From: a virus
IMG/VR virus record: IMGVR_UViG_3300023184_003237
Coordinates: 4,746-68,745 of that record
DNA: 64,000 nucleotides
Strand: one strand, 5' to 3'
Position numbers and translations under genes: made by a program. Positions 33,214 through 63,749 of the stretch are shown piece by piece. The notes beneath the pieces are model-generated. The model ran no database searches. It was not told the DNA's origin and saw only the letters and a program-made list of their open reading frames with translations. Every line of letters starts with the position of its first letter. The first letter of the stretch is position 1.

Positions 33214-33234
33214 CTAAATACTCTTAGGAGAGTA
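33214..33234 (+). promoter_or_regulatory. CTAAATA late-promoter motif overlapping a hairpin (TACTCT-tagg-AGAGTA) that covers the AGGAG ribosome-binding site
   Basis: Sequence CTAAATACTCTTAGGAGAGTA-CG-ATG, with a 6-bp inverted repeat at 33219-33234. Confidence 0.45.
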
Positions 33235-33236: not shown

Positions 33237-33542
33237 ATGGATATCAAAAACTTACTTGCTGAATCAAAAGCAAGATTCAATCATAATTCGGCTAAAGCAT
33301 ATCTAGCAGAAAAATATAAATCAAAACTAATCGTTGCCGAACAAGGTGGTTTATGGAAAGCGGATGCCGAAACAATCTCATTGCTCAATAGCTTTTCATC
33401 AGCTACGCTAGTTCTTATGGACACCTTTAATAGCCCAGTTAAGGTAGATCGCCAACAACTACTAGAAAAACTTCAACAAATCTACGAAACTACCATGGAA
33501 CAATGGTATAATGAATGGCAACTACTTGAAAGCAAGAGATGA
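33237..33542 (+). CDS. Hypothetical protein (first gene of the modification run)
   Basis: 101-aa ORF with an AGGAG SD and an ATGA overlap with the next gene. Confidence 0.75.
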   Translation: MDIKNLLAESKARFNHNSAKAYLAEKYKSKLIVAEQGGLWKADAETISLLNSFSSATLVLMDTFNSPVKVDRQQLLEKLQQIYETTMEQWYNEWQLLESKR

Positions 33543-34351
33543 CCCGAGGCGCAATTTTATTTGCTTTTAATACTGAGAAATTTAATTATTATGATATGGC
33601 AGAATATGCTGCTAAACGCATAAATCATTTTCTCAATCTTCCGGTAACAATTGTTACTGATGAAGATTCATTTCCAAAAAATACTAGCTATGTTTGGGAT
33701 AAAGTAATTAAAATTGTTCCTGACAAAAATAATACACGAGTATGGGGCACATGGATTAATAAGGGCAGATGGCAAGCATACGAATTTACACCCTACGATG
33801 AAACATTGTTATTGGATGTTGATTATGTAGTAAACTCATCAAAATTGTTAAAAATATTTGACTTGTATGATGATTTCTGCTGCCATAATACGATTGACTG
33901 CTTAATGCAGCCTAACTCTGGACAAGAAAAATTAAGTCATTATGGATATAACTCTCTTTGGGCCACAGTGGTTGCATTTAAAAAAACTACCAAAGTTAAT
34001 AATATCTTTAACTGCATGAAAATGATACAGAATAATTATGAATTCTATATGAATTTGCACTCATTCAGTACAGGTATATATAGAAATGATTATTCATTGA
34101 CTATTGCATTGAGTATTATTAATGGACATTTAACTGATAACCGTGATTTTATCCCATGGAATTTGTTACACATAGCTAACAATACACAAATATATAAATC
34201 TAATAAAGATGAATTAGATTCAGAATTCACCGTAACATTTGATAATTGGCAAAGAGGTAAAATTCGCAAAGAATATGTAACAATTAATGATTTAGATTTT
34301 CACATAATGGATAAAGAACTGTATGTAGGGATCATTGAAAATGCAAAATAA
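33539..34351 (+). CDS. GT-A fold glycosyltransferase-like protein (DxD)
   Basis: AYEFTPYDETLLLDVDY carries a DxD after the SPY/TPY motif, and YRNDY follows. This pattern is typical of nucleotide-diphospho-sugar transferases. Confidence 0.7.
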   Translation: MTRGAILFAFNTEKFNYYDMAEYAAKRINHFLNLPVTIVTDEDSFPKNTSYVWDKVIKIVPDKNNTRVWGTWINKGRWQAYEFTPYDETLLLDVDYVVNSSKLLKIFDLYDDFCCHNTIDCLMQPNSGQEKLSHYGYNSLWATVVAFKKTTKVNNIFNCMKMIQNNYEFYMNLHSFSTGIYRNDYSLTIALSIINGHLTDNRDFIPWNLLHIANNTQIYKSNKDELDSEFTVTFDNWQRGKIRKEYVTINDLDFHIMDKELYVGIIENAK

Positions 34352-35102
34352 TAAAGGTTTTGTAATAATGGCGCAAGGAGACGATTATGAAAAATGCGCC
34401 CGGGCTTTGGAACTTAGCATTAAACGTGCTATGCCCGATGCTAATGTTACTATTATAACAACCAAAATGTTGCCGTACGGAGATCAATGTCCCGACACAT
34501 TTTGGAAATTGCAAAATGATTGGCAAGTTTATGAAGCTAGTCCATATGAATACACAATCAAATTAGAAGCAGATATGTATATTCCCCAATCAATTGAATA
34601 TTGGTTTGATTCATTGAAAGATAGAGATGTTGTTATTTGTACTAATATAAAAAATTTTATGCAAGAAGATTCTGATGTAACATTTTATAGAAGATTCATT
34701 ATTGATAATAAATTACCTAATACTTACAACGGGATTACATATTTTAAGAAATCACCATTGGCTCAGCAATTCTTTGAAACTACAAGAACTATTTGGGAAA
34801 ATTGGAAAGATGTTCGCAGCACACTACAATGTAATGTAAATGAACTAGCATCAACTGATTGGGTTTATGCAATCGCATCTCATATTATAGGGGTTGAAAA
34901 AACTACACTGCCACAGTTTGAAGCAATGTCAATGATTCATATGAAACAATATATTAATAATACCCCGTCTGAAGATTGGACAGATATATTTACATCTGAA
35001 ATTTTACCTCATTCTATCCGAATAAATACAATTCCTCAATTATACCCGTTTCACTATCATGTTAAGCACTTTGCAAATACTATACTGGAGAACTTAAAAT
35101 GA
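34341..35102 (+). CDS. GT-A fold glycosyltransferase-like protein (paralog, ExD)
   Basis: YEASPYEYTIKLEADM parallels the preceding gene; LPNTYNGITYF, STDWVYA and HYH motifs are present. The ATG at 34341 is a more likely start than the TTG at 34335. Confidence 0.65.
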   Translation: MQNNKGFVIMAQGDDYEKCARALELSIKRAMPDANVTIITTKMLPYGDQCPDTFWKLQNDWQVYEASPYEYTIKLEADMYIPQSIEYWFDSLKDRDVVICTNIKNFMQEDSDVTFYRRFIIDNKLPNTYNGITYFKKSPLAQQFFETTRTIWENWKDVRSTLQCNVNELASTDWVYAIASHIIGVEKTTLPQFEAMSMIHMKQYINNTPSEDWTDIFTSEILPHSIRINTIPQLYPFHYHVKHFANTILENLK

Positions 35103-35446
35103 TAGAAAATAATGATGAGTCTATGTTTGTTTGGAATGCACCTACTATCGAAAAGCCCGAATTTAGGTTGTATTATGATGATTTAGGTAGTATAATATGT
35201 TATTCAGGTGATAAACTACAAGAAGGTAACTTTATAGTTATAGATGCTCAAACTTTTGCTGAAGCTAGATATGATTTAAGAATTATCGATGGTAGAATCA
35301 TTAAAAATTCTAGTCACGCAACTATAGTTAGACTAACACCTAGTGACAACGGAACGTTGTGTGCTAGCGAAGACCTAAGTGTTATTGTATCTGAGGAAGA
35401 TGAAGTTGAAAAACAATATTGGAAGTTAACTGTTTATGAATTTTGA
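35099..35446 (+). CDS. Hypothetical protein
   Basis: 115-aa ORF, translationally coupled (ATGA) on its 5' side and overlapping the next gene. Confidence 0.7.
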   Translation: MIENNDESMFVWNAPTIEKPEFRLYYDDLGSIICYSGDKLQEGNFIVIDAQTFAEARYDLRIIDGRIIKNSSHATIVRLTPSDNGTLCASEDLSVIVSEEDEVEKQYWKLTVYEF

Positions 35447-36389
35447 AAATATTGTGGATGTTGCTGATTTAGATTGTATCTATCTAAGTTATGATGAGCC
35501 ACAAAAAGAAGAATTTTGGCTTAAAATTAAAAATATGATACCCTGGGCTAAACGAGTAGACGGAGTTAAAGGCTCTGATGCTGCTCATAAAGCAGCAGGT
35601 GAAGAAAGTGATACAGAACGATTTATTTTAATTGACGGTGATAACATGCCGGACGAAAGTTTTTTCAATATGCAATTAAATTTTACTGATAAAGATCCTA
35701 AATATAAATTAGCACAATATCGTTGGAAAGCAATTAATAGTATTAACGGATTGCGCTATGGTAATGGTGGCATGAGTAGCTGGACAAAGACGTATGTTGC
35801 TAATATGCAAACACATGAAAATCAAACAGAAGGTGACATTAGCCGTATTGCTGATTTCTGTTTAGACAGCAAAGATAATTTATACTGGGCAATGCATGAT
35901 TGTTATTCTACTACTTATCCCAATTATACTCCGTTTCAAGCATGGCGCGCAGGATTTCGTGAAGGCGTAAAGATGGTTCTTGATAAAGGAGCTAAGCCTG
36001 ATATCAATACATTTAGAGAAACAGTTTCTAATCGTAATGTCAATAACTTAACAATATGGCACAACGTGGGAATGGACGTAGATAACGGAGAGTGGGCAAT
36101 TATGGGCGCACGTATGGGAACTCACATGACTATGTTAACAGATTGGGAACATACTAATGTTCAGTGGTTTGATAACTATACAACCATGTGGGAACAAGTT
36201 AAGAATGAAGATCCTTTGATATTAGCAGAAACATACGGCATTGAATTAAGTGCAAAATTAGGGTTACCTATGTGTGCTTTAGACAAAGTTCAAAGTAAAT
36301 TTTTTAAACGTCACTACAACGCTGACAAATACAATGTAGGTCCACTTGTAACTGAGATGGATGTTATTCGTAGAATCGAAGGATGGTAA
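35436..36389 (+). CDS. GT-A/GT2-like glycosyltransferase (DGD motif)
   Basis: DCIYLSYDEP...RVDGVKGSDAAHKAA...ERFILIDGDN...NGLRYGNGG...AWRAGFREGVK. It is clearly homologous to the C-terminal domain of the 55748..62146 protein. Confidence 0.65.
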   Translation: MNFENIVDVADLDCIYLSYDEPQKEEFWLKIKNMIPWAKRVDGVKGSDAAHKAAGEESDTERFILIDGDNMPDESFFNMQLNFTDKDPKYKLAQYRWKAINSINGLRYGNGGMSSWTKTYVANMQTHENQTEGDISRIADFCLDSKDNLYWAMHDCYSTTYPNYTPFQAWRAGFREGVKMVLDKGAKPDINTFRETVSNRNVNNLTIWHNVGMDVDNGEWAIMGARMGTHMTMLTDWEHTNVQWFDNYTTMWEQVKNEDPLILAETYGIELSAKLGLPMCALDKVQSKFFKRHYNADKYNVGPLVTEMDVIRRIEGW

Positions 36390-37783
36390 TGAGTAGTGAA
36401 CACCAACGCATACAAGACATTAAAATAAAGATTGAGAATGAAGTAGGTCCTACTTTTTGCCTTGCTAAATTTCATCATGTAACTATGTATCTACAATCAG
36501 GTGAGACACATAGTTGTTATCACCCACAGCCGCACAAAATTCCTCTAATAGAATTAAAAGATAATCCATCTGCATTGCATAATACAATTCAGAAAAAAGA
36601 AGAACGTAAACTAATGCTTGAAGGTGGTAAACCTTCTGGCTGTCAATATTGCTGGAACATTGAAGCAATGGGTCCAGAATATATCAGTGACCGTCATATT
36701 CGTAATGCATCTATCTTTACAGAAGAACGATATGAACAAACAGTCAAGGGTCCTTGGGATCAAAACATCAATCCAGAATACTTAGAGATTAACTTTGGTA
36801 ACGAATGTAATTTTAAATGTGGCTATTGTCATCCCAAGTATTCTACTAGTTTCTATAATGAAATTAAAGTTAATGGCCCTGTAACAACAGTAAAGAACCA
36901 TCGCTGCGATGTTGATTGGATGAAACTATATCAGCGTGAAGAAGAAAATCCCTACGTTGATGCATTCTGGAAGTGGTGGCCTGAATTACGCAAGACATTA
37001 AATATTATGCGGGTAACAGGTGGCGAACCAACTATGCATACAAGTACTTGGAAATTGCTTAAAGAAATTGATAAAGATCCTATGCCATGGTTAGAGTTAA
37101 ATATTAATAGTAACTTAGGCACTAAAACGGCTCTTGTTGAAAAGTTAAGTGATAGTGTAAAACAATTATGTGATGATGGGAAAATAAAGTCATTCAAATT
37201 ATTTACTAGCCTAGACACATGGGGACCCAAAGCTGAATATATTCGTACTGGATTAAATTTGGAATTATGGGAAAAGAATTTTCACACATATCTTACTAGA
37301 ACTGATAGCCCCATAACGTTTATGATTACGTTTAACATCTTTAGTGTAACTACATTTAAAGAATTTTTAGCTAAGTTTTTAGAATGGCGTGAGCAGTATG
37401 GGTGGTATGATGATATTAAGGATCACCGAGTTCGCTTTGATACTCCATACTTACGTGACCCAATACAGTATGATATGAACATTCTTCCTAAAGAAGAATT
37501 CATGCCCTATATGCATGATGCATTAAAGTTTATGGAAGAAAATGTAGATGACAATGCTAGTAATAAGTTTACTACAGTTGAATATGAAAAGTTCAAACGT
37601 GTAGTAGATTACATGGCAGAGACAGTTTATTCCGAAGATAAATTAACTGAAGGGCGTAGAGATTTTTATAATTGGTTCAATGAATTAGACGAACGTAGAG
37701 ATACTGATATGTTATCTATTTTTCCTGAGTATATGAATTTTTATAAATTGTGCCAAGAAACTAACCAATTAAATCCATTATGA
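36389..37783 (+). CDS. Radical SAM protein with N-terminal twitch-like Cys cluster
   Basis: CNFKCGYC and TGGEP motifs, with N-terminal FC...SC...CQYC. The start is probably the TAATG-coupled ATG at 36389 (the track gives 36383). Confidence 0.85.
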   Translation: MSSEHQRIQDIKIKIENEVGPTFCLAKFHHVTMYLQSGETHSCYHPQPHKIPLIELKDNPSALHNTIQKKEERKLMLEGGKPSGCQYCWNIEAMGPEYISDRHIRNASIFTEERYEQTVKGPWDQNINPEYLEINFGNECNFKCGYCHPKYSTSFYNEIKVNGPVTTVKNHRCDVDWMKLYQREEENPYVDAFWKWWPELRKTLNIMRVTGGEPTMHTSTWKLLKEIDKDPMPWLELNINSNLGTKTALVEKLSDSVKQLCDDGKIKSFKLFTSLDTWGPKAEYIRTGLNLELWEKNFHTYLTRTDSPITFMITFNIFSVTTFKEFLAKFLEWREQYGWYDDIKDHRVRFDTPYLRDPIQYDMNILPKEEFMPYMHDALKFMEENVDDNASNKFTTVEYEKFKRVVDYMAETVYSEDKLTEGRRDFYNWFNELDERRDTDMLSIFPEYMNFYKLCQETNQLNPL

Positions 37784-39009
37784 ATAAAGAATATCACTTA
37801 ACAGAAAGCAAAACGTTTTGTATGTTGCCATGGGTACATTTATATACTACTCCAATTGGAGTAGCAGCGCCCTGTTGTATTTCTGCATCGATTTCAACTG
37901 AAAAAGGCATGGGAGATTCTACTAAACAACCATTAATGGAACTTGTAAATTCTGAAAAAATGAAAGAATTACGTATGGATATGTTAGCTGGTGTTAAAAA
38001 TCCAGAATGTAATTCTTGTCATGTTGGGGAATTACACGGCGGGAATAGCTTTAGACAATCAGCAAATAAAGACTATGGAAAGTTTTTTGATGAAGCTATA
38101 AACAATACATTACCAGATGGGTCAATAACAAAATTTGAAATGAGATATTTTGATATTAGATTCAATAATATATGTAACTTTAAATGCAGAACGTGTGTTA
38201 GTGAATTTAGTAGCCAATGGGAACAAGAGAACTTAAAAAATAAAGTAACATACGCAAAAATTCATCCAAAAAATGATAGTCCAAAATTCTTGCAAGAAGT
38301 AATAGACCAAATTCAATTTATGCAAACTGCATATTTTGCAGGCGGAGAACCGTTAATTACTGAAGAACATTATGTGTTATTAGAAGAAATGATAAAACAA
38401 GGTCGAACTGACATAAAATTAAGATATAACACAAATTTGAGTAATTTAAAATTTAAAAATAAAGACTTACTAGGGTTATGGAAACATTTTGATAAAAATA
38501 TTGAATTAAGTGCCAGCATAGACCATTATGGAAGTCGTGCGGAATATATAAGAAATGGAACTGTATGGCCAACAATAGAAGAAAATTTTCTTAATATTAA
38601 AAAATTGCCATATGTTAATATGCAAATTAATACAGTATTAAGCATTTTTAATTTATTGACATTCGATAAATTTTATGAATATTTAATTAATAATAAAATG
38701 TATTCCCCTATTGATCCGACATATGGATTATATAGAATGACAGGACCAATCTATTTGTCATGTCACATTTTACCTGAAGAATACAAAATACAAGGTAAAG
38801 AAAGTATAGAAAAATCTATATCCTTGTTAAAACAACATAACTTTACAAAACATCAAATAGCTTCATTAGAGCAAGTATTACCCTGGTTATTTTCTGAAAA
38901 TATATGGGAACAAAATAAAAATGAATTTAAAAATGAAGTCCAACGATTAGATAAAATTAGAGGGGAAGATTTTAGTAAAACTTTTCCTGAACTAGCAGGA
39001 TTATTATGA
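37780..39009 (+). CDS. Radical SAM protein with N-terminal twitch-like domain
   Basis: FCMLPW...PCC...CNSC at the N-terminus, then CNFKCRTC and AGGEP. Confidence 0.88.
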   Translation: MNKEYHLTESKTFCMLPWVHLYTTPIGVAAPCCISASISTEKGMGDSTKQPLMELVNSEKMKELRMDMLAGVKNPECNSCHVGELHGGNSFRQSANKDYGKFFDEAINNTLPDGSITKFEMRYFDIRFNNICNFKCRTCVSEFSSQWEQENLKNKVTYAKIHPKNDSPKFLQEVIDQIQFMQTAYFAGGEPLITEEHYVLLEEMIKQGRTDIKLRYNTNLSNLKFKNKDLLGLWKHFDKNIELSASIDHYGSRAEYIRNGTVWPTIEENFLNIKKLPYVNMQINTVLSIFNLLTFDKFYEYLINNKMYSPIDPTYGLYRMTGPIYLSCHILPEEYKIQGKESIEKSISLLKQHNFTKHQIASLEQVLPWLFSENIWEQNKNEFKNEVQRLDKIRGEDFSKTFPELAGLL

Positions 39010-40232: not shown

Positions 40233-40234
40233 AA

Positions 40235-42471: not shown

Positions 42472-42473
42472 TT

Positions 42474-48717: not shown

Positions 48718-48733
48718 AAGCGTAAATAATCAT

Positions 48734-51133: not shown

Positions 51134-51182
51134 TAAATCCACTGCAACAAAAAGACTTAAATAGTCTATATAGGAGATTAGT

Positions 51183-54172: not shown

Positions 54173-54261
54173 TAAGATGGTTTAAAAATTTGATTAGAGA
54201 ATATAAATATCGCAAGCGATTAAAAGAACTACGTAAGCGTGATCCGTTTATTTACAAATGA
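54163..54261 (+). CDS. 32-aa basic micro-protein MFIVRWFKNLIREYKYRKRLKELRKRDPFIYK (missing from the ORF track)
   Basis: GAGG SD upstream. It bridges the gap between neighbours and its TGA overlaps the carbamoyltransferase ATG (ATGA). Confidence 0.7.
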   Translation: MFIVRWFKNLIREYKYRKRLKELRKRDPFIYK

Positions 54262-55739: not shown

Positions 55740-55747
55740 GTAATTAA

Positions 55748-58700
55748 ATGCTAAGAGATGTATTTTATTACGGTAATAAACCCAATGTTCACCCAAGAGA
55801 AAAATTTGCAACTTCAATAGAAGATGCTAGACAACAATGTACCACTGAACATTTTTGGATAATCAACGAATACTGTGATTATCAGAATTTTGATTGGGAC
55901 TTTGATTTTGAATTCTTACCCAATGAAGATGTATGGGCGGAAGAACACAACAACGTATGGCCTAGTCAGCATCAAAAAGATAGCGGAACCTGGCTATGCT
56001 CATCTCAACCAAGTCAAGTAATTATTTATAGAAATGATGTTAATCCGGTAATTCGTAAAAATATAAAAAATGATAATTGGGTATTGGTATATCCAGTTGA
56101 CGAAACTAAATTTGATTTTAGTTGGCACCCAGATCCAACAGATCCTCCCTATATACATTCATGGGGATGTAAATTTTTCCCAGTAGAATTGCAAGCCTGT
56201 GTAGAATATCATGCACCAGGTGCCAGTACTATAAAGTATATGAGAGGTGTTGTAGAATTATTACCCCAGCCTGATAAATTTGACCATTTTGAAAATAGTT
56301 ATGATATAGATTATTCTTGGGTACCTGATCCAACAAGCCCTCCCTACATTTATGTATGGGGAAATCAGTGGAACAAACCTGAAGATAAAATTAGTATTCA
56401 GTATGTTGTAGAAGGTGCAACAGAATATAAGTTTATGAAAGAACGGGCTACACGTAAACCATGTTTAGAAAATTGGGCTATTCCTGAAAATATTGATTAT
56501 AAAAATTTTGATTATTCATGGGAACCTAGTCCAGCCGAACCACCTTTCATTTATCAATTTGGAACACAATGGCAAAAAACAGGTGGGCCTCGATATGAGG
56601 TTGAGGGTGCAACAGAAATCAAGTATATAGATATTTTTAAAGCTAAAAGATTAGTTAATATGACTAATTGGACCTTACCTAAAAATATTGATATTAAAGA
56701 TTTTGATTTTAGTTGGCACCCAGACGATACCAGTCCTCCATACATATATAGATTTCCAACTCAATGGGCTATGAGTGGTGGACCAGTATATGTTGTACCT
56801 GAGGCAACTGAAATAAAATATATTGACACATTGGTAGCAAAAGCTACAGCGTCAATGGATAATTGGGAGATACCTGATTATATTGATGTTGATAATTTTG
56901 ATTATAGTTGGCATCCATATATAGAAGATGAACCTTACATATATCAATTTGGTACTCAATGGCAAAAGACCGGGGGCCCAAAATATATAACTCCCGGGAC
57001 AAATAAAAATAGTCCTGTGAAATATATTGATACACGTATTATTAAAGCAAAACGACTACCTAATAAAAAAGCATTTACTACATTAGATAATATTGTAATT
57101 AAAGATTTTGATTATTCATGGCATCCAGATACTACAGAAGAATCTTTTATTTATGTGTTTGGAAATACGCAGTATCCAGCAGAAATAATGCCTACAATTG
57201 AGTATGTGATGCCAGGGGCAACTCAAATAAAATATATAAATGATATAGTTGTTAAATTAGGAGAAAATAGAAATAACTGGATAATTACACAACCTATTGC
57301 TGAGGATAACTTTGACTTTAGTTGGGTGCCTAATCCCAAAGATCCTCCTTACATATATACATGGGGTAATAAATATATTTCTAATTTATATAAGCCGACG
57401 ATTCAATATAAAGTAGAAGGCGCAATTGAAATAAAATATATGGATGATCTTGTTAAAGTATTACCTGAATTAGATAAATGGGTGATACCGGCTAATATTG
57501 ATGATAGTTTTTTTGATTATACATGGAGACCTGATCCATTAGAACCAGATTTAATTTGGCAGTTCGGAACACAATGGCAAAAGACAGGTGGACCAAGATA
57601 TATAGTACCGGGCGCTACTGAAATAAAATATGTTGACACTCAAAAAGTAAAAGTATTACCAAACAATGTTTATTGGAAAATAATAGATAATCTTAAAATA
57701 AAAGAATTTGATTATTCATGGCATCCGGATGAAACCGAAGAATCTTTTATTTATGTGTTTGGAAATACGCAGTATCCAGCAGAAATAATGCCTACAATTG
57801 AGTATGTGATGCCAGGGGCAACTCAAATAAAATATATAGGAGAAGTTATTGCTCTACTTGATGTAGATATGAATGGATGGATAGTACCTGACAATATTGA
57901 TATTGGTGAGTTTGATTTTAGCTGGAAGCCTAATCCCAAAGACCCAGCCTACATATATGAGTTTGGCACTCAATGGCAAAAGACAGGTGGACCACGATAT
58001 ATAATACCGGGTGCTACTGAAATAAAATATGTTGACACTCAAAAAGTTAAAATATTAACAAATAAATTAAATTGGATTATACCTAAAAAGATTGATATTA
58101 CAGATTTTGATTTTAGCTGGCATCCAGATGACTCCAGTCCTCCATACATATATAGATTTCCAACTCAATGGGCTACTAGTGGCGGACCAGAATACATTGT
58201 ATCAGGTGCAACTGAAATAAAATATATTGACATATTGATGGCAAAAGCAGTACCTGACAAAACAAATTGGGAATTTGATCCTACAACGATTGATGTTAAT
58301 AATTTTGATTTTAGTTGGCATCCATATATAGAAGATGAGCCGTACATATATCAATTTGGTACTCAATGGCAAAAGACAGGTGGCCCGCGCTATGTAACTC
58401 CTGGAGCGCATAAAAATAGCCCTGTGAAATATATTGATACACGTATTATTAAATCAAAACGTTTATCTAATAAAAAATATTGGAGAACAGTCAACAATTA
58501 TGTAATTGCTGATTTTGATTATAGTTGGCATCCTGATGAAACCGAAGAATCTTTTATATATGTTTTTGGCAATACGCAGTATCCAGCAGAGATAATGCCT
58601 ACTATTGAATATTATATTCCTGGAGCTGATCAATACAAATATATAAATGATATAGTTGTAAAGCTAGGGGAAAATAAATTAAATTGGATCATTCCTAATA

Positions 58701-61700
58701 ACGTAGATACTACTGACTTTGATTTCAGTTGGGTGCCTAATCCCAAAGACCCAGCCTACATATATGAGTTTGGTACTCAATGGCAAAAGACAGGTGGACC
58801 AAGATATATAGTACCGGGCGCTACTGAAATAAAATACGTTGACACTCAAAAAGTACTGGCACTGCCTAATAAAAATAATTGGGTAATGCCGATCGGGTTA
58901 AAAATTGCTAGTTTTGATTATTCATGGCATCCAGATGCAACGGAAGAAGATTATATTTATCAATTTGGCACTCAATGGGTAATGACCGGCGGACCCAAGT
59001 ATGTAATGCCCGGGGCTACACAAGTTAAATATATTGACAATAATAATGCTATAATTGGTCCTAATAAAGCAAATTGGGTAATACCTAAAAATATTGCAGT
59101 AGACCAATTTGATTTTAGTTGGCATCCACATCCCGATGATCCTATGTTCATCTATCATTTTGGTACACAATGGCAAAAGACCGGCGGTCCAAAATATTTA
59201 ACGCCCGGCGTTAATAAAGATAGTCCAGTAAAATATATTGATACACGTATTATTAAAGCAAAAAGATTACCTGAAAAGGATAATTTTATAATTTTAGATA
59301 ATATTGTTATTAAGGATTTTGATTATTCATGGCATCCGGACGAGACAGATACTCCATTCATTTACGTATTTGGAAATACGCAGTATCCAGCAGAGATAAT
59401 GCCTACTATTCAATATATACCTAAAGAAATTGCTAAATTATCCTCAGATAACCCAATTGGTCAAATTAAATATGTTACTGATATTGTTGCAAAATTGGGA
59501 CCAAACAAAACTAACTGGGTAATTCCTGATAATGTTATTGCTTTTGATTATAGCTGGGTACCTAATCCTAAAGACCCGGATTACATATATGAATTTGGCA
59601 CGCAATGGCATGACAGGGGGGGACCAAGATATGTACCTAATAGTATACCTAGGCTAGCTTCGGGTGAACCCATTGGTCAAATTAAATATGTTACTGATAT
59701 TGTTGCAAAATTGGGAGAAAATAAATCTTGCTGGAATATTCCAGATGATATTGATTTAAATAATTTTGATTTTAGCTGGGTTCCTCATCCAAACGAACCT
59801 GCCTATATTTATATATTTGGTACTCAATGGCAAAAAACAGGTGGACCTACGTATGTGCCTGAGGCTATTCCAATATTGGCATCAGGTAAACCAATTGGGC
59901 AACTCAAATATGTTGACTCTATCCATGCTACAAAATTGCCATCTAAAAAATATTGGTTCAATCCTAATCAATCAGATATTAGCACATTTGATTATAGCTG
60001 GCACCCAGATGAAACTGCACCACCCTACATATATCAATTTGGTACATTGCTAGATAAAGAGGATGGCCCTAGGTATATGTCACCAAACACAAACGGTGAA
60101 ATAATATATTTGGAAAGAGTAGAAAGAACTGAGATAGAGATTGAAATACCCATAGAAAAAATAGAAGGTTTTCCTAAATATATTATTACAACAACCTTAG
60201 AAGATTTAATTGAACAGCACCCTAATAAATTATTCTGGGCATTAAATCCTGATTTAGATTATAGTGAGTTTGATTTTGATTGGCGACCTGATATTGAGCA
60301 ATCACAATATTTACATGCTTTTGGTTCACAGGATAATATTAATACACAAACATATTTTGTTAACGCAGCGTCCTGGTTAAAAGGATTCAAAGATATTAAC
60401 TACGTAGAAGATAAAACTATTAATGTAAAAATTAATATCGATATGTTTTTTGTAGACAGAAGTAACAATGAATCACAGGTAAGATTTGAAGGGTTAAAAC
60501 AACAATTTCCTAATATACAAAAGACTCGCTACTTGAATAGTTGGGTCGATACTATTAATCGTTGCATTAATCGTGCTAGTAGTAATTTGTGCTGGATATT
60601 GAACAGTGAATTAGATTATAGTGATTTTGATTTCAACTATTATCCTAATCCATGGCAAATGAAGATGGTTCATGTGTTTGGTACGCAATGGAGCCATTGG
60701 GGAACCACATTTATGGTTAACCGCGAAACATTTGCACAAGATACAAAATTTATTAAGATAATTGAACATCTTTCTAACTTGAACTTTGTTAAAGACAGAA
60801 AAGCAAAGGCAACAAACATCTTGTATGATATTGTTTATATTGACCATGGTAACACGGACATGACACAACTTAAAAAAGAAGGAAAATTAATAGTCAACTA
60901 TCAGGATAGTTATATTGCAACATTGCAAAAAATGTTAAGTATGCTTACTGTAAAAAAAGAACATTATGTTTGGGTAGCTAGCACAGTATGTGATTATAAA
61001 GATTTTGATTTTACTTATATATGCGATCCGTTTGCTAAAGATCAATTACATGTATTTCCTAGCGATAGACAGAAGTTTGGGGACACATTCTTAATTGATG
61101 TTAACAAACTTAGAACATTGATTGAAGATATGAATACATTAGAAGATTATGAAAAAATTAATTATAATCAAAGTCAGAGAGTTAAAAGATTATCAGCACC
61201 GGTTATTGTAACTAAAGAAGATACTCATGTAAACAATATAAATTCAATATTCAATTTCCCATATGCTGTGTTTATCACTGAGGATAACAAAGACATTAAT
61301 ATCATTGATACTGAACCTATGAGTTTATGGACACCGGAATCTAAAAATATTCAGATTACTAGTGTCGGTGGAACACGTATTGTTGTTCCAAAAGAAGCCA
61401 AAGATTATATAAAACATGAATTATATGATTACCCATATATCATTACTAATAGCCGACTTGCTAAATCTAATCCATTGGATATTGTATTTTTTAGTAACGG
61501 AGAAACTAGTGCAGATACAAATTACGAACATTTATTAAAAATAACGCAAGGGTTACCAAATAAAGTAGTAAGAATAGATGGGGTAAGCGGTCGTGTAAAT
61601 AGTCAACATGTAGCAGCAAATTCTAGTGACACTCAATGGTATTTTCTAGTTAATGCTAAATTAAAAGTAAATTCTAAATTTGATTTTAACTGGCAACCGG

Positions 61701-62146
61701 ATAGATTACAAATTCCAAAGCATTATATTTTTCATGCCACTAACCCTGTTAACGGGTTAAAGTATGGTCACCAAGCTATTGTTGCTAACAATAAAAAACT
61801 TACACTAGAAAACTTTGGAACTGGATTAGACTTTACTATGGATAGTGAACATGAGATTATTAAAATCAACTCAGGTGTTGCAATATTTAATACTAGTGCA
61901 TGGGACACCTGGCGTACAGCATTCCGTGAATGTATTAAACTTAAAGCATCATCTACTGATGAAAGCAAAGAACGTTTGGAAATGTGGTTAACTGTGGGTA
62001 TGGGTGAGTTCAATGAATACAGCATGGAAGGTGCACAACATGCAGTAGAATACTATAACGAAGTTAACGGGGACTTTGATAAATTAAGATTAAGTTATGA
62101 TTGGCCTTGGTTGAAAGAAAAATTTAATTTTTATTATAACATATGA
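55748..62146 (+). CDS. 2132-aa repeat protein: about 20 'FD(F/Y)SWxP...YIYxFG' modules plus degenerate GT-A-like domains
   Basis: Tandem 65-75-aa repeats span about 56111-60045. The C-terminal domain (61475-62146) aligns with the 35436..36389 GT but has NAK in place of DGD. Confidence 0.75.
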   Translation: MLRDVFYYGNKPNVHPREKFATSIEDARQQCTTEHFWIINEYCDYQNFDWDFDFEFLPNEDVWAEEHNNVWPSQHQKDSGTWLCSSQPSQVIIYRNDVNPVIRKNIKNDNWVLVYPVDETKFDFSWHPDPTDPPYIHSWGCKFFPVELQACVEYHAPGASTIKYMRGVVELLPQPDKFDHFENSYDIDYSWVPDPTSPPYIYVWGNQWNKPEDKISIQYVVEGATEYKFMKERATRKPCLENWAIPENIDYKNFDYSWEPSPAEPPFIYQFGTQWQKTGGPRYEVEGATEIKYIDIFKAKRLVNMTNWTLPKNIDIKDFDFSWHPDDTSPPYIYRFPTQWAMSGGPVYVVPEATEIKYIDTLVAKATASMDNWEIPDYIDVDNFDYSWHPYIEDEPYIYQFGTQWQKTGGPKYITPGTNKNSPVKYIDTRIIKAKRLPNKKAFTTLDNIVIKDFDYSWHPDTTEESFIYVFGNTQYPAEIMPTIEYVMPGATQIKYINDIVVKLGENRNNWIITQPIAEDNFDFSWVPNPKDPPYIYTWGNKYISNLYKPTIQYKVEGAIEIKYMDDLVKVLPELDKWVIPANIDDSFFDYTWRPDPLEPDLIWQFGTQWQKTGGPRYIVPGATEIKYVDTQKVKVLPNNVYWKIIDNLKIKEFDYSWHPDETEESFIYVFGNTQYPAEIMPTIEYVMPGATQIKYIGEVIALLDVDMNGWIVPDNIDIGEFDFSWKPNPKDPAYIYEFGTQWQKTGGPRYIIPGATEIKYVDTQKVKILTNKLNWIIPKKIDITDFDFSWHPDDSSPPYIYRFPTQWATSGGPEYIVSGATEIKYIDILMAKAVPDKTNWEFDPTTIDVNNFDFSWHPYIEDEPYIYQFGTQWQKTGGPRYVTPGAHKNSPVKYIDTRIIKSKRLSNKKYWRTVNNYVIADFDYSWHPDETEESFIYVFGNTQYPAEIMPTIEYYIPGADQYKYINDIVVKLGENKLNWIIPNNVDTTDFDFSWVPNPKDPAYIYEFGTQWQKTGGPRYIVPGATEIKYVDTQKVLALPNKNNWVMPIGLKIASFDYSWHPDATEEDYIYQFGTQWVMTGGPKYVMPGATQVKYIDNNNAIIGPNKANWVIPKNIAVDQFDFSWHPHPDDPMFIYHFGTQWQKTGGPKYLTPGVNKDSPVKYIDTRIIKAKRLPEKDNFIILDNIVIKDFDYSWHPDETDTPFIYVFGNTQYPAEIMPTIQYIPKEIAKLSSDNPIGQIKYVTDIVAKLGPNKTNWVIPDNVIAFDYSWVPNPKDPDYIYEFGTQWHDRGGPRYVPNSIPRLASGEPIGQIKYVTDIVAKLGENKSCWNIPDDIDLNNFDFSWVPHPNEPAYIYIFGTQWQKTGGPTYVPEAIPILASGKPIGQLKYVDSIHATKLPSKKYWFNPNQSDISTFDYSWHPDETAPPYIYQFGTLLDKEDGPRYMSPNTNGEIIYLERVERTEIEIEIPIEKIEGFPKYIITTTLEDLIEQHPNKLFWALNPDLDYSEFDFDWRPDIEQSQYLHAFGSQDNINTQTYFVNAASWLKGFKDINYVEDKTINVKINIDMFFVDRSNNESQVRFEGLKQQFPNIQKTRYLNSWVDTINRCINRASSNLCWILNSELDYSDFDFNYYPNPWQMKMVHVFGTQWSHWGTTFMVNRETFAQDTKFIKIIEHLSNLNFVKDRKAKATNILYDIVYIDHGNTDMTQLKKEGKLIVNYQDSYIATLQKMLSMLTVKKEHYVWVASTVCDYKDFDFTYICDPFAKDQLHVFPSDRQKFGDTFLIDVNKLRTLIEDMNTLEDYEKINYNQSQRVKRLSAPVIVTKEDTHVNNINSIFNFPYAVFITEDNKDINIIDTEPMSLWTPESKNIQITSVGGTRIVVPKEAKDYIKHELYDYPYIITNSRLAKSNPLDIVFFSNGETSADTNYEHLLKITQGLPNKVVRIDGVSGRVNSQHVAANSSDTQWYFLVNAKLKVNSKFDFNWQPDRLQIPKHYIFHATNPVNGLKYGHQAIVANNKKLTLENFGTGLDFTMDSEHEIIKINSGVAIFNTSAWDTWRTAFRECIKLKASSTDESKERLEMWLTVGMGEFNEYSMEGAQHAVEYYNEVNGDFDKLRLSYDWPWLKEKFNFYYNI
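57137..57838 (+). repeat. 102-bp perfect direct repeat (57137-57238 and 57737-57838)
   Basis: GAAGAATCTTTTATTTATGTG...CAAATAAAATATATA is identical in both copies, which are exactly 600 bp apart. Confidence 0.92.
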
Positions 62147-63165
62147 AAAATTTGACAATAGATTATTGGAACCATCATGTTGACCGATATGGTTTTATGA
62201 AAAAGATATTTGATAAAGAACCAGTAGACAACATAATAATTTTTGCTTGCAATGAATGGGATACATTGTCAATTTTTGGTAATGTGTATGTATGGGATTA
62301 TTTTCACTATTATGTACAAAAAGAAAAAATTAAAATAGAATTGATAACTGCTAGTCCGATACCATATCAATCTGAAAATTTAAACATTACATATTGGGGA
62401 GAATATTGGTTAATAAAAACATATGCAAATGTTATGAGGCCGGATGCGTCAAAAGCTATTAAGCTGAAAAAAGAAAAGGCAATGGGATTAAAATATCATT
62501 TTATTTGTATGAATCATAGACCCCATATTCATCGGTGTCGTCTTATAGATTTGTTAGAAAAAAATAATTTAATATCTAGTAATGCAATTTCTTGGCACAA
62601 TACTAACGAATTTGGTACATATCCCTTTGAATATTTTAAACCTAAAATGTTAAAATTTAATCAAACTTTTGATTCATATGCTGAAGATAAAAATACGAGC
62701 AATTTACCAATCGAATATTTTCAATCATTTGCACAATTGATTTCTGAAAGCACCGACGAACATATGTTTTTTTCAGAAAAAGTATCAATGGCATTAATTT
62801 GGGAAAAACCTTTTTTAGCGCATTCGGGTCCCGGACTTCATAAATATTTAACAACGTTAGGATTTGAGTTATATACTGAAATTTTTGATTATTCATTTGA
62901 TTCGGAACTTGACTCTAAAAAAAGACTTAATATGATAGTAAATAATTTTATCAAACTATGTGAAATTCCATTAGATAAATTGAAAAAAATAGAAAATCAA
63001 CTACAACCTAAGTTAGAACATAATAAAAATAGAGCAAAAGAAATTGCAATGAATATTGATAAATTTCCAGAAATAATTAAATCTTTTAAAGATGATTTTT
63101 CGGCATTAACTGATATATATGAAAATATTAATTATATTAATTATATTCAAAATCTTACTAAATAA
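62143..63165 (+). CDS. Putative GT-B-type glycosyltransferase, paralog 4
   Basis: FICMNHRPHIHR, QSFAQLISES, FSEKVSMAL..EKPFL and GFELYTEIFDYSFD. Confidence 0.5.
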   Translation: MKNLTIDYWNHHVDRYGFMKKIFDKEPVDNIIIFACNEWDTLSIFGNVYVWDYFHYYVQKEKIKIELITASPIPYQSENLNITYWGEYWLIKTYANVMRPDASKAIKLKKEKAMGLKYHFICMNHRPHIHRCRLIDLLEKNNLISSNAISWHNTNEFGTYPFEYFKPKMLKFNQTFDSYAEDKNTSNLPIEYFQSFAQLISESTDEHMFFSEKVSMALIWEKPFLAHSGPGLHKYLTTLGFELYTEIFDYSFDSELDSKKRLNMIVNNFIKLCEIPLDKLKKIENQLQPKLEHNKNRAKEIAMNIDKFPEIIKSFKDDFSALTDIYENINYINYIQNLTK

Positions 63166-63168
63166 TAT

Positions 63169-63360
63169 ATGATAGTAAAACTTGCAAACAAAATCGGACA
63201 GGCACATGCTAAGTTCTTTATGTGGTTAGGGCGCAAAGCCGAAACTAACCCATGGTGGGCAGTTGCATTAACTATTTGGGCATTGTATGAAATTGGTGAA
63301 CATATTGCCGGTCCAGTTATGGCAATCATGTATGCTACTGGGCACCTAGTTGTTCAATAA
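63169..63360 (+). CDS. Small putative membrane protein
   Basis: 63 aa with hydrophobic segments (PWWAVALTIWALY; GPVMAIMY). Confidence 0.6.
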   Translation: MIVKLANKIGQAHAKFFMWLGRKAETNPWWAVALTIWALYEIGEHIAGPVMAIMYATGHLVVQ

Positions 63361-63740: not shown

Positions 63741-63749
63741 ATAAAAAGA

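What the first reader, a model, noticed from the sequence alone, without database searches (positions are those of the whole stretch)
33237..63360. ~30-kb phage-encoded glycan synthesis and radical-SAM tailoring system next to the tail genes
Seen: about 24 co-oriented genes, mostly joined by ATGA or TAATG overlaps (33539, 35099, 36389, 37780, 39006, 43790, 44764, 47584, 53423, 54258, 62143). They encode 7 radical SAM enzymes, about 8 GT-like domains, a GME-like epimerase, an NDP-sugar dehydrogenase, 2 SGNH-like proteins, a carbamoyltransferase and a GT-derived repeat protein. No flippase, polymerase, ABC exporter or nucleotide kinase/hydroxymethylase was recognised in the window. Inference: the run follows the fibre genes, shares late-promoter motifs and lacks export genes. 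The best hypothesis is therefore cytoplasmic assembly of a heavily modified (carbamoylated, methylated, acylated, radical-rearranged) glycan on virion proteins. DNA hypermodification or host-surface remodelling are alternatives. This density of Fe-S/B12 radical enzymes in one viral operon is unusual and, to my knowledge, biochemically uncharacterised.
Basis: partly seen in the sequence, partly recalled or inferred. Interest (0 to 1): 0.88.

Follow-up and report, generated by a model that had tools for sequence, protein, structure and literature searches.

The report
Phage sugar-building and radical-enzyme gene island
A common freshwater giant phage carries, right after its tail-fibre genes, a conserved 30-kb block of soluble sugar-making, sugar-transferring and radical SAM enzymes whose target is still unknown, most plausibly the virus particle itself.

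Summary
Window 33237-63360 holds 22 co-oriented, mostly overlapping ORFs on a phage contig (baseplate and fibre genes upstream). Confirmed:
- 7 radical SAM enzymes: 4 N-terminal-twitch paralogs, 1 short, 2 B12-type.
- A GDP-mannose 3,5-epimerase homolog (E 2e-90).
- An NDP-sugar dehydrogenase fused to a GT-B-like domain.
- An O-carbamoyltransferase.
- 2 SGNH-like proteins (motif level).
- A 2132-aa protein with about 19 repeats.

GT-like claims: 6 of 8 supported.
- One GT-B fold model, with 3 paralogs.
- One GT-A fold model with a conserved DxD, plus a DxD-less copy.
- 2 unverified.

"GT-derived repeats" was not supported.

The island is syntenic in 77 viral loci, including complete 360-kb relatives. 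Those relatives lack lipid-carrier, flippase and polymerase genes and have an ordinary thymidylate synthase. A TAAATA box precedes baseplate genes, a fibre gene and cluster genes alike. It is conserved in 54 of 54 loci before the first cluster gene.

Best reading: a late-expressed cytoplasmic glycan-building and tailoring system. Virion proteins are the likeliest acceptor (about 0.4). Host-surface, small-molecule and DNA targets remain open.

Pelagimyophage "host recognition clusters" with GTs and radical SAM cassettes are a printed precedent. A GT-A plus tandem N-twitch radical SAM module also occurs in bacterial MAGs.

The parts
33215..33220 (+). TAAATA box 22 nt upstream of the first cluster gene (promoter-like; a T4-type late promoter by analogy, which is recalled)
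   Evidence: the motif is enriched in gaps (10 observed, 1.56 expected); it is present within 60 nt upstream in 54 of 54 related loci, mostly 21-27 nt from the start codon.
33237..33542 (+). 101-aa conserved protein, function unknown
   Evidence: No family hit. Homologs in 54 of 77 viral loci.
33539..34351 (+). 270-aa protein, paralog of the next gene. The GT-A-like reading is unverified. D93 and D95 ('DVD') are invariant.
   Evidence: Alignment A7. hhalign against the next gene's family gives probability 98.8%, E 9.8e-17. No PDB or Pfam hit.
34335..35102 (+). 255-aa paralog of the previous gene. The GT-like reading is unverified.
   Evidence: phrog_1903 (unknown function) at E 1.5e-5. Alignment A5. 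No GT in PDB; the best hit is RtcB at E 0.039, taken as chance. 3402 unnamed homologs.
35099..35446 (+). 115-aa conserved protein, function unknown
   Evidence: No family hit. Homologs in 55 of 77 loci.
35436..36389 (+). GT-A fold glycosyltransferase-like enzyme with a near-invariant D67-x-D69. It is the most conserved unknown protein of the island.
   Evidence: AF2 model with pLDDT 93.3. Foldseek top hit is PBCV-1 A64R (2p6w) at E 4e-4, followed by BcsA, HAS, TarP, RmlT and SunS. VIA gives B4GALNT1 at Z 9.4, rmsd 3.1, 144 aligned. The DxD is seen in A2. More than 8000 90%-identity clusters exist, and 1135 representatives at 50% identity.
36383..37783 (+). N-terminal-twitch radical SAM enzyme (divergent paralog)
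   Evidence: NF033640 at 311.5 bits against a cut-off of 170. Four twitch Cys and CX3CX2C are invariant.
37780..39009 (+). N-terminal-twitch radical SAM enzyme
   Evidence: NF033640 at 378 bits. SPASM domain at residues 14-81.
39006..40232 (+). N-terminal-twitch radical SAM enzyme
   Evidence: NF033640 at 369 bits. 47% identical to the previous gene.
40235..41512 (+). N-terminal-twitch radical SAM enzyme
   Evidence: NF033640 at 362.6 bits.
41497..42471 (+). Short radical SAM enzyme with a Cys-rich C-terminus
   Evidence: PF04055 at 30.6 bits. CNFKCSYC motif. Homologs sit next to N-twitch radical SAM genes in 15 of 62 bacterial loci.
42474..43793 (+). GT-B-like paralog (C-terminal half)
   Evidence: BLASTP to 47584-48717 at E 6.7e-20.
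43790..44764 (+). GDP-mannose 3,5-epimerase homolog
   Evidence: 2c59 at E 2.1e-90 over residues 3-321; the next family scores 3e-24. PF01370 at E 1.6e-42.
44764..45666 (+). SGNH-like hydrolase/acyl-esterase candidate
   Evidence: Invariant G9, C10, S11, G15, N74 and H277 in A6. GDSL-like PDB hits at block V only, E about 0.7.
45659..47587 (+). B12-binding-type radical SAM enzyme (probable C-methyltransferase class)
   Evidence: PF04055 at 47.8 bits. PF02310 at 29.8 bits, under its cut-off of 32.1. KedN5-family model at 248 bits, far under its cut-off of 700.
47584..48717 (+). GT-B fold glycosyltransferase-like enzyme (the modelled member)
   Evidence: AF2 model with pLDDT 94.5. All listed Foldseek PDB hits are GT-B enzymes; the best is 7mi0 at E 2.6e-4. 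VIA gives T4 BGT at Z 10.8-11.2, PglH 10.5, T4 AGT 10.2 and H. pylori FucT 9.6.
48734..51133 (+). NDP-sugar 6-dehydrogenase (residues about 1-400) fused to a GT-B-like domain (about 459-778)
   Evidence: TIGR03026 at E 1.2e-39. UGDH structures at E 5e-19. BLASTP to 47584-48717 at E 9.5e-37.
51183..53426 (+). B12-binding radical SAM enzyme
   Evidence: PF04055 at 53.7 bits and PF02310 at 40.7 bits, both over their cut-offs.
53423..54172 (+). SGNH-like protein (second family)
   Evidence: Aligns with 44764-45666 and shares the S, N and H positions. DUF6071 at E 0.0059, under its cut-off.
54258..55739 (+). O-carbamoyltransferase (NodU/CmcH type)
   Evidence: PF16861 at 163 bits and PF02543 at 125 bits. 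NovN at E 7e-46, plus GdmN and TobZ. A TATAAATA box lies at 54202 in the 85-nt gap upstream.
55748..62146 (+). 2132-aa protein: about 19 tandem repeats of 65-75 aa (residues about 110-1480), a linker, and a C-terminal GT-A-like domain without DxD
   Evidence: 21 motif copies. C-terminus against the A2 profile by hhalign: probability 99.3%, E 3.2e-20, with IDGDN replaced by VNAKL. The same loss occurs in 3 relatives. ORF length in relatives is 2312, 1237 and 1649 aa.
62143..63165 (+). GT-B-like paralog
   Evidence: BLASTP to 48734-51133 at E 1.1e-10 and to 42474-43793 at E 5.8e-8.
63169..63360 (+). 63-aa hydrophobic ORF. Membership in the island is uncertain.
   Evidence: Not tested further.

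Best explanation
TIER 1 (about 0.8). This is a phage-encoded, entirely soluble system that builds and tailors an unusual glycan from host nucleotide sugars.
- GDP-mannose is epimerised by the GME homolog (43790-44764), presumably to GDP-L-galactose or GDP-L-gulose.
- A host NDP-hexose is oxidised to a uronic acid by the dehydrogenase half of 48734-51133.
- Four GT-B-like enzymes and the DxD-bearing GT-A enzyme (35436-36389) transfer the sugars.
- The product is tailored in several ways. The carbamoyltransferase adds O-carbamoyl groups. The two SGNH-like proteins probably add or remove acyl esters. The two B12-type radical SAM enzymes probably C-methylate it. Four N-twitch radical SAM paralogs and the short radical SAM enzyme rework it by chemistry that is still unknown.

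TIER 2 (about 0.4 overall). The island is transcribed with the baseplate and fibre genes from TAAATA-box promoters, late in infection. Its acceptor is a cytoplasmic virion component: the fibres, the 6631-aa protein, or the 2132-aa repeat protein.

Shown here: enzyme families and folds, synteny, lack of membrane and export parts, and the shared motif.
Inferred: substrates, order of steps, timing, and acceptor.
For: - Phage context: baseplate hub, gp25-like and gp6-like wedge proteins, and a fibre with a Peptidase_G2 chaperone domain, all upstream.
- Enzyme set.
- GT-B and GT-A folds from high-confidence models. DxD is near-invariant in 77 homologs.
- No KD TM-like segment in any of 21 cluster proteins.
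- 0 of 3 near-complete relatives have Bac_transf, Glycos_transf_4, Polysacc_synt, Wzy_C or NTP_transferase; controls ring in 10-14 of 14 genomes.
- Synteny holds in 77 viral loci, and through the carbamoyltransferase and repeat protein in 3 relatives.
- TAAATA box: 17.5 per kb in gaps against 0.79 per kb in coding sequence. 0 of 2000 shuffles reach the observed 10.
- The box is conserved in 56 of 56 loci before the fibre gene and 54 of 54 before the first cluster gene, but in 0 of 61 before an internal overlapped gene.
- The nearest solved radical SAM relatives act on small molecules: viperin E 3e-6, BtrN twitch domain E 5e-6, BlsE E 0.02. Peptide maturases score weaker: SkfB 0.005, YydG 0.4.
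- The top Foldseek hit of the GT-A model is the PBCV-1 capsid-glycosylating A64R.
- The repeat protein is as Cys-poor (0.6%) as the structural proteins (0-0.6%). The enzymes have 1.1-3.7%.
Against: - No acceptor is identified, and no glycoprotein evidence exists.
- The late timing rests on a motif and on a recalled T4 analogy. No RNA run holds the sequence, so timing was not tested.
- In relatives thyA lies only 8-16 kb beyond the island in the same orientation. The island therefore borders the nucleotide-metabolism region as well as the fibres.
- The best VIA matches of the GT-B model are T4 DNA beta- and alpha-glucosyltransferases: Z 11.2 and 10.2, within about 1 of other GT-B enzymes.
- Bacterial loci with the same GT-A plus N-twitch radical SAM module also hold 2OG oxygenases, a PNP_UDP_1 nucleosidase-like gene and TauD. 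They look like small-molecule pathways.
- The authors of the closest printed precedent favour host O-chain modification (PMC7029224).
- Two of the eight GT-like proteins are unverified.
Confidence: 0.4

Rival explanations
1. Host-envelope remodelling. The enzymes make modified nucleotide sugars and add them to host LPS, capsule or S-layer glycans through the host's own lipid-carrier, flippase and ligase machinery. This would block superinfection or alter adsorption.
For: This is the interpretation printed for fibre-adjacent GT, UDP-glucose dehydrogenase and radical SAM genes in pelagimyophage host recognition clusters (PMC7029224, passages read). GME, NDP-sugar dehydrogenase and carbamoyltransferase are typical of surface-polysaccharide loci (established knowledge).
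Against: There is no initiating phosphoglycosyl transferase, flippase, polymerase or ligase in the window or in 3 near-complete relatives. No cluster protein has a TM-like segment. The shared TAAATA box suggests expression with virion genes, and late expression leaves little time for surface change to pay off (inference).
Confidence: 0.2
2. Small-molecule product. The island makes a free, heavily tailored glycoside, aminocyclitol-like or nucleoside-like metabolite, such as an inhibitor of competitors or a host-manipulating compound. It would not be a polymer-bound glycan.
For: The nearest solved relatives of several enzymes are natural-product enzymes: NovN, GdmN and TobZ, BtrN, viperin and BlsE, and a KedN5-like model that scores under its cut-off. 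Bacterial loci with the same module add 2OG oxygenases, TauD and a PNP_UDP_1 protein, and lack glycan-export genes within 10 kb.
Against: At least six GT-like domains, and a 2132-aa repeat protein conserved with the island, fit a polymeric or protein acceptor better. No exporter is present. The island sits in the fibre module.
Confidence: 0.15
3. DNA hypermodification. The GTs glycosylate phage DNA bases, and the other enzymes tailor the attached sugar. This would protect the genome from restriction or CRISPR.
For: The best VIA matches of the GT-B model are T4 beta-glucosyltransferase (Z 10.8-11.2) and alpha-glucosyltransferase (Z 10.1-10.2). In relatives the island lies 8-16 kb from thyA. All proteins are soluble.
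Against: Each of 3 relatives has a single ThyA-family gene. The one examined (G002) behaves as a canonical thymidylate synthase: all 60 listed PDB hits are TS, the best at E 3.4e-82, and it has the PCH and PFNIASYALL motifs. No dCMP or dUMP hydroxymethylase paralog is evident. No Tet_JBP match was found, but the controls were silent, so that result is inconclusive. The Z scores are tied with many non-DNA GT-B enzymes. The motif points to late expression.
Confidence: 0.1
4. The radical SAM enzymes modify protein, not sugar. They would install cross-links, epimerised residues or C-methyl groups on a fibre or on the repeat protein, in the manner of RiPP maturases, while the sugar enzymes act separately.
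For: 51183-53426 scores E 3.5e-29 against the RiPP C-methyltransferase model TIGR03975, under its cut-off. SPASM/twitch radical SAM enzymes are often peptide maturases (established knowledge). An Asp/Asn beta-hydroxylase domain sits beside the module in bacterial locus L134.
Against: The N-terminal twitch arrangement is unlike RiPP maturases. The nearest solved relatives by profile are viperin and BtrN rather than SkfB or YydG. No precursor-like peptide was recognised: the small ORFs 33237 and 35099 lack an obvious core (by eye only).
Confidence: 0.12

Closest known systems
Host recognition cluster of pelagimyophages and cyanomyophages (Zaragoza-Solas et al. 2020, PMC7029224; passages read)
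   Same: A large region with tail-fibre genes followed by glycosyltransferases, nucleotide-sugar genes (UDP-glucose 6-dehydrogenase) and radical SAM gene cassettes. Function is untested.
   Different: Here the phage is a freshwater jumbo phage. Its wedge protein is 32-34% identical to GAP32, Atu_ph07 and Phosso, and its relatives are 335-364 kb. The island is syntenic rather than hypervariable in its first half. It carries 7 radical SAM genes. Its GTs escape all Pfam models.
Autonomous virion glycosylation of giant viruses (chlorovirus PBCV-1 A64R and others; Chem Rev 2022 PMC9614988, listing and abstract only) and of mycobacteriophages (Freeman 2023, seen only as a reference entry)
   Same: Virus-encoded soluble GTs and nucleotide-sugar enzymes that act in the cytoplasm without lipid-carrier export. 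A64R is the top Foldseek hit of the GT-A model.
   Different: To my knowledge (recalled) no radical SAM, B12 or carbamoyl tailoring is known there. The acceptor here is not shown.
T4 DNA glucosyltransferases BGT and AGT
   Same: Small phage GT-B enzymes. They are the best structural matches of the GT-B model: Z 11.2 with rmsd 5.4 over 265 aligned, and Z 10.2 with rmsd 4.8 over 275 aligned.
   Different: 8-10% sequence identity. The scores are tied with PglH, OtsA, FucT and others. No hydroxymethylase was found in relatives.
GT10 alpha-1,3-fucosyltransferases
   Same: GT-B fold matches with the lowest rmsd: H. pylori FucT 2nzx at Z 9.6, rmsd 3.9; FUT9 8d0o at Z 9.2, rmsd 4.2. Invariant R164 and E287-K288 resemble the GT10 R and 'EK' motifs (the motif is recalled). 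A GDP-L-galactose donor from the GME homolog would be a close analogue of GDP-L-fucose (inference).
   Different: No PF00852 hit in the window protein or in 87 homologs. The Atlas lead scores only 0.77-0.78.
Aminoglycoside and natural-product tailoring enzymes (BtrN, TobZ, NovN, B12 radical SAM methylases)
   Same: The same enzyme classes. The twitch domain aligns to BtrN's at E 5e-6. The carbamoyltransferase aligns to NovN and TobZ.
   Different: The twitch domain is N-terminal here. The setting is a phage fibre module. Many GTs are present.

Membership tests
Radical SAM superfamily | CX3CX2C cluster motif | tested here: met
   Present in 7 of 7 (sequences). Invariant in 12 N-twitch sequences.
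Radical SAM superfamily | PF04055 score over the gathering cut-off (29.5 bits) | tested here: inconclusive
   4 of 7 pass the cut-off (38.5, 30.6, 47.8 and 53.7 bits). 3 of 7 fall under it (27.4, 24.8 and 17.1), but those three pass NF033640.
NCBIfam NF033640 N_Twi_rSAM | Whole-protein score over the cut-off (170 bits), with the N-terminal twitch Cys residues | tested here: met
   311.5, 378, 369.3 and 362.6 bits for the four paralogs. C14, C33, C74 and C77 are invariant. 41497-42471 scores only 29.6 bits and is not a member.
B12-binding (class B) radical SAM | PF02310 B12-binding domain upstream of the radical SAM core | tested here: inconclusive
   51183-53426 scores 40.7 bits against a cut-off of 32.1: met. 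45659-47587 scores 29.8 bits: under the cut-off.
KedN5 family C-methyltransferase (NF033712) | Score over the cut-off (700 bits) | tested here: not met
   248 bits, covering model positions 61-388 of 624.
GDP-mannose 3,5-epimerase | Full-length similarity to solved GME that stands apart from other SDR sugar enzymes | tested here: met
   2c59 at E 2.1e-90 over residues 3-321. The next family (UXS) scores 3.3e-24. Catalytic residues and activity were not tested.
UDP-glucose/GDP-mannose dehydrogenase family | N-terminal, central and C-terminal Pfam domains | tested here: inconclusive
   The N-terminal domain (52.4 bits) and central domain (58.1 bits) pass their cut-offs. The C-terminal UDP-binding domain scores 19 bits against a cut-off of 30. 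TIGR03026 scores 136 bits against 189.8.
NodU/CmcH O-carbamoyltransferase | Carbam_trans_N and Carbam_trans_C both over their cut-offs | tested here: met
   124.9 and 163.2 bits. The NodU equivalog model scores 129 bits against a cut-off of 1000: not NodU itself.
GT-B fold glycosyltransferases | Two Rossmann-like domains that match solved GT-B enzymes over the whole chain | tested here: met
   pLDDT 94.5. The 50 listed VIA rows are almost all GT-B-type enzymes, Z 7.8-10.8, spanning residues 9-377. Foldseek's best hit is at E 2.6e-4.
GT10 fucosyltransferase family | PF00852 match | tested here: not met
   0 of 87 family members hit it at E <= 0.01. The likeness is structural and motif-level only.
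GT-A fold / GT2-like glycosyltransferases | Nucleotide-diphospho-sugar transferase fold with a DxD motif | tested here: met
   Residues 5-170 match GT-A enzymes at Z 8.0-9.4. D67 and D69 are conserved in 90% or more of 77 sequences. For the GT2 Pfam models, 0 hits in the window protein and 1 of 77 homologs for each model.
GT-A fold (C-terminal domain of 55748-62146) | DxD motif | tested here: not met
   IDGDN is replaced by VNAKL, and by VFAKL or VWGKL in 3 relatives. The domain is homologous to the family (E 3.2e-20) but is probably not a metal-dependent transferase.
GT8 / GT-A (33539-34351 and 34335-35102) | Any sequence or fold link to a known GT | tested here: inconclusive
   No Pfam, NCBIfam or PDB hit. 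There is only an invariant D-x-D or E-x-D after a hydrophobic strand.
SGNH/GDSL hydrolases | Block I Ser, block III Asn, and block V (D/E)xxH | tested here: met
   S11, N74 and H277 are invariant across both families. The block V alignment to two GDSL-like structures is at E about 0.7, which is not significant. No Pfam SGNH model hits.

The most novel reading that the evidence does not exclude
A conserved module consists of a DxD GT-A enzyme, three to six tandem N-terminal-twitch radical SAM paralogs and a short radical SAM enzyme. It is shared by an abundant freshwater jumbo-phage lineage and by bacterial MAGs (Bdellovibrionota, a gammaproteobacterium, a Neisseriaceae bin). The proposal is that it makes a radical-rearranged sugar that the phage installs on its own fibres or on the copy-number-variable 2132-aa repeat protein. 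That would be the first radical-SAM-dependent virion glycan, and it would give a function to the N_Twi_rSAM family.
Probability: 0.25. Interest if true: 0.85.

Novelty: new variant of a known kind. Interest (0 to 1): 0.62.

Why it matters
The lineage is abundant. The core GT-A protein alone has more than 8000 90%-identity clusters. Near-identical DNA is held in freshwater and lake runs of at least five studies.

About a tenth of each 335-364-kb relative's genome is spent on this island, yet none of its GT-like families is in Pfam, and the N-twitch radical SAM family has no known substrate.

If the glycan decorates virions, it would extend virus-encoded glycosylation, so far known from giant viruses and mycobacteriophages, to radical chemistry in aquatic phages. 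That bears on host range, grazing and particle stability.

If the target is DNA or a free metabolite, the chemistry would be equally new. In either case the island supplies a defined enzyme set for assigning radical SAM sugar chemistry.

Tried and rejected
CLOSED OR FAILED TOOLS
- Searches failed through a machine outage and were repeated.
- Supplementary files were not consulted. Those of PMC7029224 may list the radical SAM and GT families in pelagimyophage clusters.

SEARCHES THAT FOUND NOTHING USEFUL
- Megablast of 36000-56000 against GenBank phages: no match.
- TATAAATA as a full octamer is not enriched: 9 observed, 21 expected. The 6-mer TAAATA in gaps is enriched.
- The sigma-70 and terminator scans were at chance level.
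- No tRNA.
- No DNA tandem repeat under the protein repeats.

PROFILE SEARCHES AGAINST PDB
- GT-B family: no hit.
- 33539 family: no hit.
- 34335 family: only RtcB at E 0.039, taken as chance.
- GT-A family: GmaR at E 0.073, over the DxD region only.

OTHER NEGATIVE OR WEAK RESULTS
- Pfam scans of 87 GT-B-family and 77 GT-A-family homologs gave no usable GT family.
- The third homolog search, with the merged 33539/34335 profile, returned 3402 unnamed proteins without Pfam domains.
- The 33539 profile did not match the PF03407 protein of bacterial locus L131.
- Repeat profile against the GT-A profile: not significant.
- The first alignment for the genome scan was too diverse.
- Tet_JBP search: nothing, but the controls were silent.
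- No RNA holder was listed for the stretch.

LITERATURE SEARCHES WITH NO DIRECT HIT
- 'radical SAM' + 'twitch domain' + 'N-terminal' + 'glycosyltransferase'.
- 'jumbo phage' + 'radical SAM' + 'glycosyltransferase'.
- N_Twi_rSAM / NF033640.
- 'radical SAM' + 'bacteriophage' + 'nucleotide sugar' + 'viral glycosylation'.
- 'huge phages' + 'radical SAM'.

Full report
CONTEXT

The window is bases 4746-68745 of a single 68,745-bp virus record. Every long ORF lies on the + strand.

Upstream of the finding lie, in order:
- a baseplate hub (2780-6286, phrog_13211, E 1.2e-38);
- a gp25-like wedge protein (6316-6765);
- a gp6-like wedge protein (6819-10214, phrog_10646, E 2.6e-255), which is 32-34% identical by tblastn to the wedge proteins of jumbo phages Phosso, GAP32, Atu_ph07 and others;
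- a 6631-aa ORF;
- three fibre-like genes, one with a Peptidase_G2 intramolecular chaperone domain.

The contig is therefore phage, not cellular. Megablast found no close GenBank phage.

OBSERVATION

From 33237 to 63360 there are 22 co-oriented ORFs. Of the 21 junctions, 14 are overlaps. 54258 instead follows an 85-nt gap that holds a TATAAATA.

Seven proteins are radical SAM enzymes, each with CX3CX2C.
- Four are paralogs of NCBIfam N_Twi_rSAM, scoring 311-378 bits against a cut-off of 170. They share four invariant N-terminal twitch cysteines.
- One is a short form (41497-42471).
- Two are B12-type. The KedN5 model is far under its cut-off (248 bits against 700), so I do not file 45659-47587 there.

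Other enzymes:
- 43790-44764 is a clear GDP-mannose 3,5-epimerase homolog. It matches 2c59 at E 2.1e-90, and the next family scores 3e-24.
- 48734-51133 is an NDP-sugar dehydrogenase fused to a second domain.
- 54258-55739 is an O-carbamoyltransferase. Both Pfam domains pass their cut-offs, and its PDB relatives are NovN, GdmN and TobZ.
- 44764-45666 and 53423-54172 align with each other. They share the SGNH block I Ser, block III Asn and block V His. The only PDB hits of their joint profile are two GDSL-like proteins at a non-significant E of about 0.7.

THE GT-LIKE CLAIMS

No Pfam, NCBIfam or PHROG GT model hits any cluster protein, so I tested folds.

GT-B family.
- For 47584-48717, 137 homologs, all unnamed, were found. 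The best 120 are listed.
- An 87-row alignment gave an AF2 model with pLDDT 94.5.
- All listed Foldseek PDB hits are GT-B glycosyltransferases. The best is at E 2.6e-4, with TM 0.3-0.4.
- VIA-align gives T4 beta-glucosyltransferase at Z 10.8-11.2, PglH at 10.5, T4 alpha-glucosyltransferase at 10.1-10.2, and H. pylori and human fucosyltransferases at 9.2-9.6 with the lowest rmsd. Rows within 1 Z are tied.
- BLASTP shows three paralogs in the window: 42474-43793, the C-terminal half of 48734-51133, and 62143-63165.
- In BFVD the family is viral and uncharacterised. It includes a 788-aa dehydrogenase fusion.
- The Atlas shows fusions to methyltransferase and epimerase domains in other phages.

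GT-A family.
- For 35436-36389, more than 8000 90%-identity clusters exist, and 1135 representatives at 50% identity.
- The model (pLDDT 93.3) has a GT-A fold over residues 5-170. Foldseek's top hit is PBCV-1 A64R at E 4e-4. VIA gives B4GALNT1 at Z 9.4.
- D67-x-D69 is nearly invariant.
- The C-terminus of the 2132-aa protein is homologous (hhalign E 3.2e-20). It has lost the DxD in the window and in three relatives.

Unverified pair.
- 33539-34351 and 34335-35102 are paralogs of each other (probability 98.8%).

In total, six of about eight GT-like domains have support. One of the six is probably non-catalytic.

Repeats.
- The 2132-aa protein has 21 copies of an F-D-F/Y-S-W-x-P motif, and about 19 tandem units of 65-75 aa.
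- A profile of the units does not significantly match the GT-A profile (E 0.26). 'GT-derived' is therefore unproven.

CONSERVATION

A scan of viral contigs found 77 loci with the N-twitch enzyme at 31-93% identity.
- Gene order from the fibre genes through the radical SAM block is kept. The number of N-twitch paralogs varies, and the second half of the island is more variable.
- Two relatives are complete with terminal repeats (364,247 and 360,683 bp). One is 95% complete (335,035 bp).
- In all three, the order B12 radical SAM, GT-B-like, (SGNH-like), carbamoyltransferase, repeat protein is kept.
- The repeat protein is 2312, 1237 and 1649 aa in these relatives, so its copy number varies.
- Near-identical DNA sits in freshwater and lake runs: 7 runs hold at least half of the sampled words, from 5 studies.

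WHAT THE REST OF THE GENOME SAYS

The three relatives have no Bac_transf, Glycos_transf_4, Polysacc_synt, Wzy_C or NTP_transferase match, while the controls ring in 10-14 of 14 genomes. Two things follow. The sugars must start from host nucleotide sugars. The phage brings no lipid-carrier export route.

None of the 21 cluster proteins has a TM-like segment.

Each relative has one ThyA-family gene. The one examined (G002) is a canonical thymidylate synthase by its PDB neighbours and motifs. This argues against hmC- or hmU-based DNA glycosylation. The Tet_JBP search found nothing, but its controls were silent.

REGULATION

TAAATA on the + strand occurs 10 times in 572 nt of intergenic gaps, against 0.79 per kb in coding sequence. 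None of 2000 shuffles reached 10.
- It lies 22-29 nt before the starts of two baseplate genes, a fibre gene, the first cluster gene and 51183.
- It also lies before 48734 and 54258.
- It is kept in 56 of 56 related loci before the fibre gene and in 54 of 54 before the first cluster gene.
- It is found in 0 of 61 loci before an internal overlapped gene and in 1 of 37 before 30303.

That this is a T4-type late promoter is an analogy from memory, not a result.

BACTERIAL COUNTERPARTS

A scan of species genomes found 62 loci at 25-41% identity, leaving out one 1.7-kb fragment at 75%. Most are in Bdellovibrionota, Flavobacteriales and Elusimicrobia MAGs.

Among the 62 loci:
- many carry tandem N-twitch paralogs;
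- 15 carry a 41497-like gene;
- 3 carry the 35436-like GT-A;
- 7-8 carry B12 radical SAM genes;
- 4 carry the carbamoyltransferase.

None showed the window's structural proteins within 10 kb.

Neighbours examined in 3 of the 62 loci include a PF03407 sugar transferase, 2OG oxygenases, TauD, a PNP_UDP_1 protein and an Asp/Asn hydroxylase domain.

The profile of the N-twitch family is nearest to an unnamed radical SAM structure (E 8.5e-8), viperin (3e-6) and BtrN's twitch domain (5e-6). Peptide maturases score weaker.

INTERPRETATION

Shown: the enzyme classes and folds, solubility, lack of export genes, synteny, and the shared upstream motif.

Inferred: a cytoplasmic pathway from GDP-mannose and an NDP-hexose to a carbamoylated, acylated, C-methylated and radically altered glycan, expressed with virion genes.

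The acceptor is open. My odds are:
- virion proteins, about 0.4;
- host envelope, 0.2;
- free metabolite, 0.15;
- DNA, 0.1.

Radical SAM action on protein (0.12) is a partly overlapping option.

Against the virion reading:
- there are no acceptor data;
- thyA lies 8-16 kb downstream in relatives;
- the T4 DNA glucosyltransferases are the top structural analogues, though tied;
- the bacterial loci have a natural-product look.

COMPARISON AND NOVELTY

Fibre-adjacent GTs, UDP-glucose dehydrogenase and radical SAM cassettes were described in pelagimyophage host recognition clusters. Their authors favoured host O-chain modification (PMC7029224, passages).

My other searches found no characterisation of such a system or of N_Twi_rSAM.

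I rate this a new variant of a known kind. It is real, conserved and abundant. It is biochemically unexplored, but as a genomic pattern it is not unprecedented.

Noticed in passing
window 10243-30138 (+): A single 6631-aa ORF lies between the baseplate wedge gene and the fibre genes. It is strongly acidic (net charge about -246), 20% Ser+Thr and almost free of Cys. Homologous stretches occur in 40 of 77 related loci at a median identity of 56%. It is a candidate giant fibre or adhesin, and a possible glycan acceptor.
   Followed up: partly
window 4001-6000: GC rises to 0.479 against about 0.33 elsewhere. The rise falls inside the baseplate-hub gene (13.8% Gly). Two long antisense ORFs lie there (4177-4956 and 5140-5922), probably compositional artefacts.
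   Followed up: no
window 63411-63740 (+) and 63600-64000: A 109-aa ORF has a signal-peptide-like N-terminus and four Cys. Beyond it only antisense ORFs are open. No tRNA was found.
   Followed up: no
window 55748-62146; G001, G002, G003: The repeat protein is 2132 aa here and 2312, 1237 and 1649 aa in three relatives, with conserved ends. Repeat number therefore changes quickly while the DxD-less C-terminal domain is kept.
   Followed up: partly
L129, L131, L134 (bacterial MAG loci): Bacterial loci combine a 35436-like GT-A, a second DxD-less-type copy, 2-6 tandem N-twitch radical SAM genes, 41497-like genes and B12 radical SAM genes. They add 2OG oxygenases and a PNP_UDP_1 protein. This is a conserved cellular module of unknown product.
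   Followed up: partly
L081: A 1.7-kb contig binned into a Flavobacteriaceae MAG encodes an N-twitch enzyme 75% identical to the window's, far above the other cellular hits (at most 41%). It is probably a phage fragment in the bin, or a faint host hint.
   Followed up: no
window about 40200 (3' end of 39006-40232): A TAAATA lies about 28-31 nt before the 40235 start, inside the preceding coding sequence, in 33 of 59 related loci. It may be an internal promoter, or a by-product of a conserved peptide.
   Followed up: no
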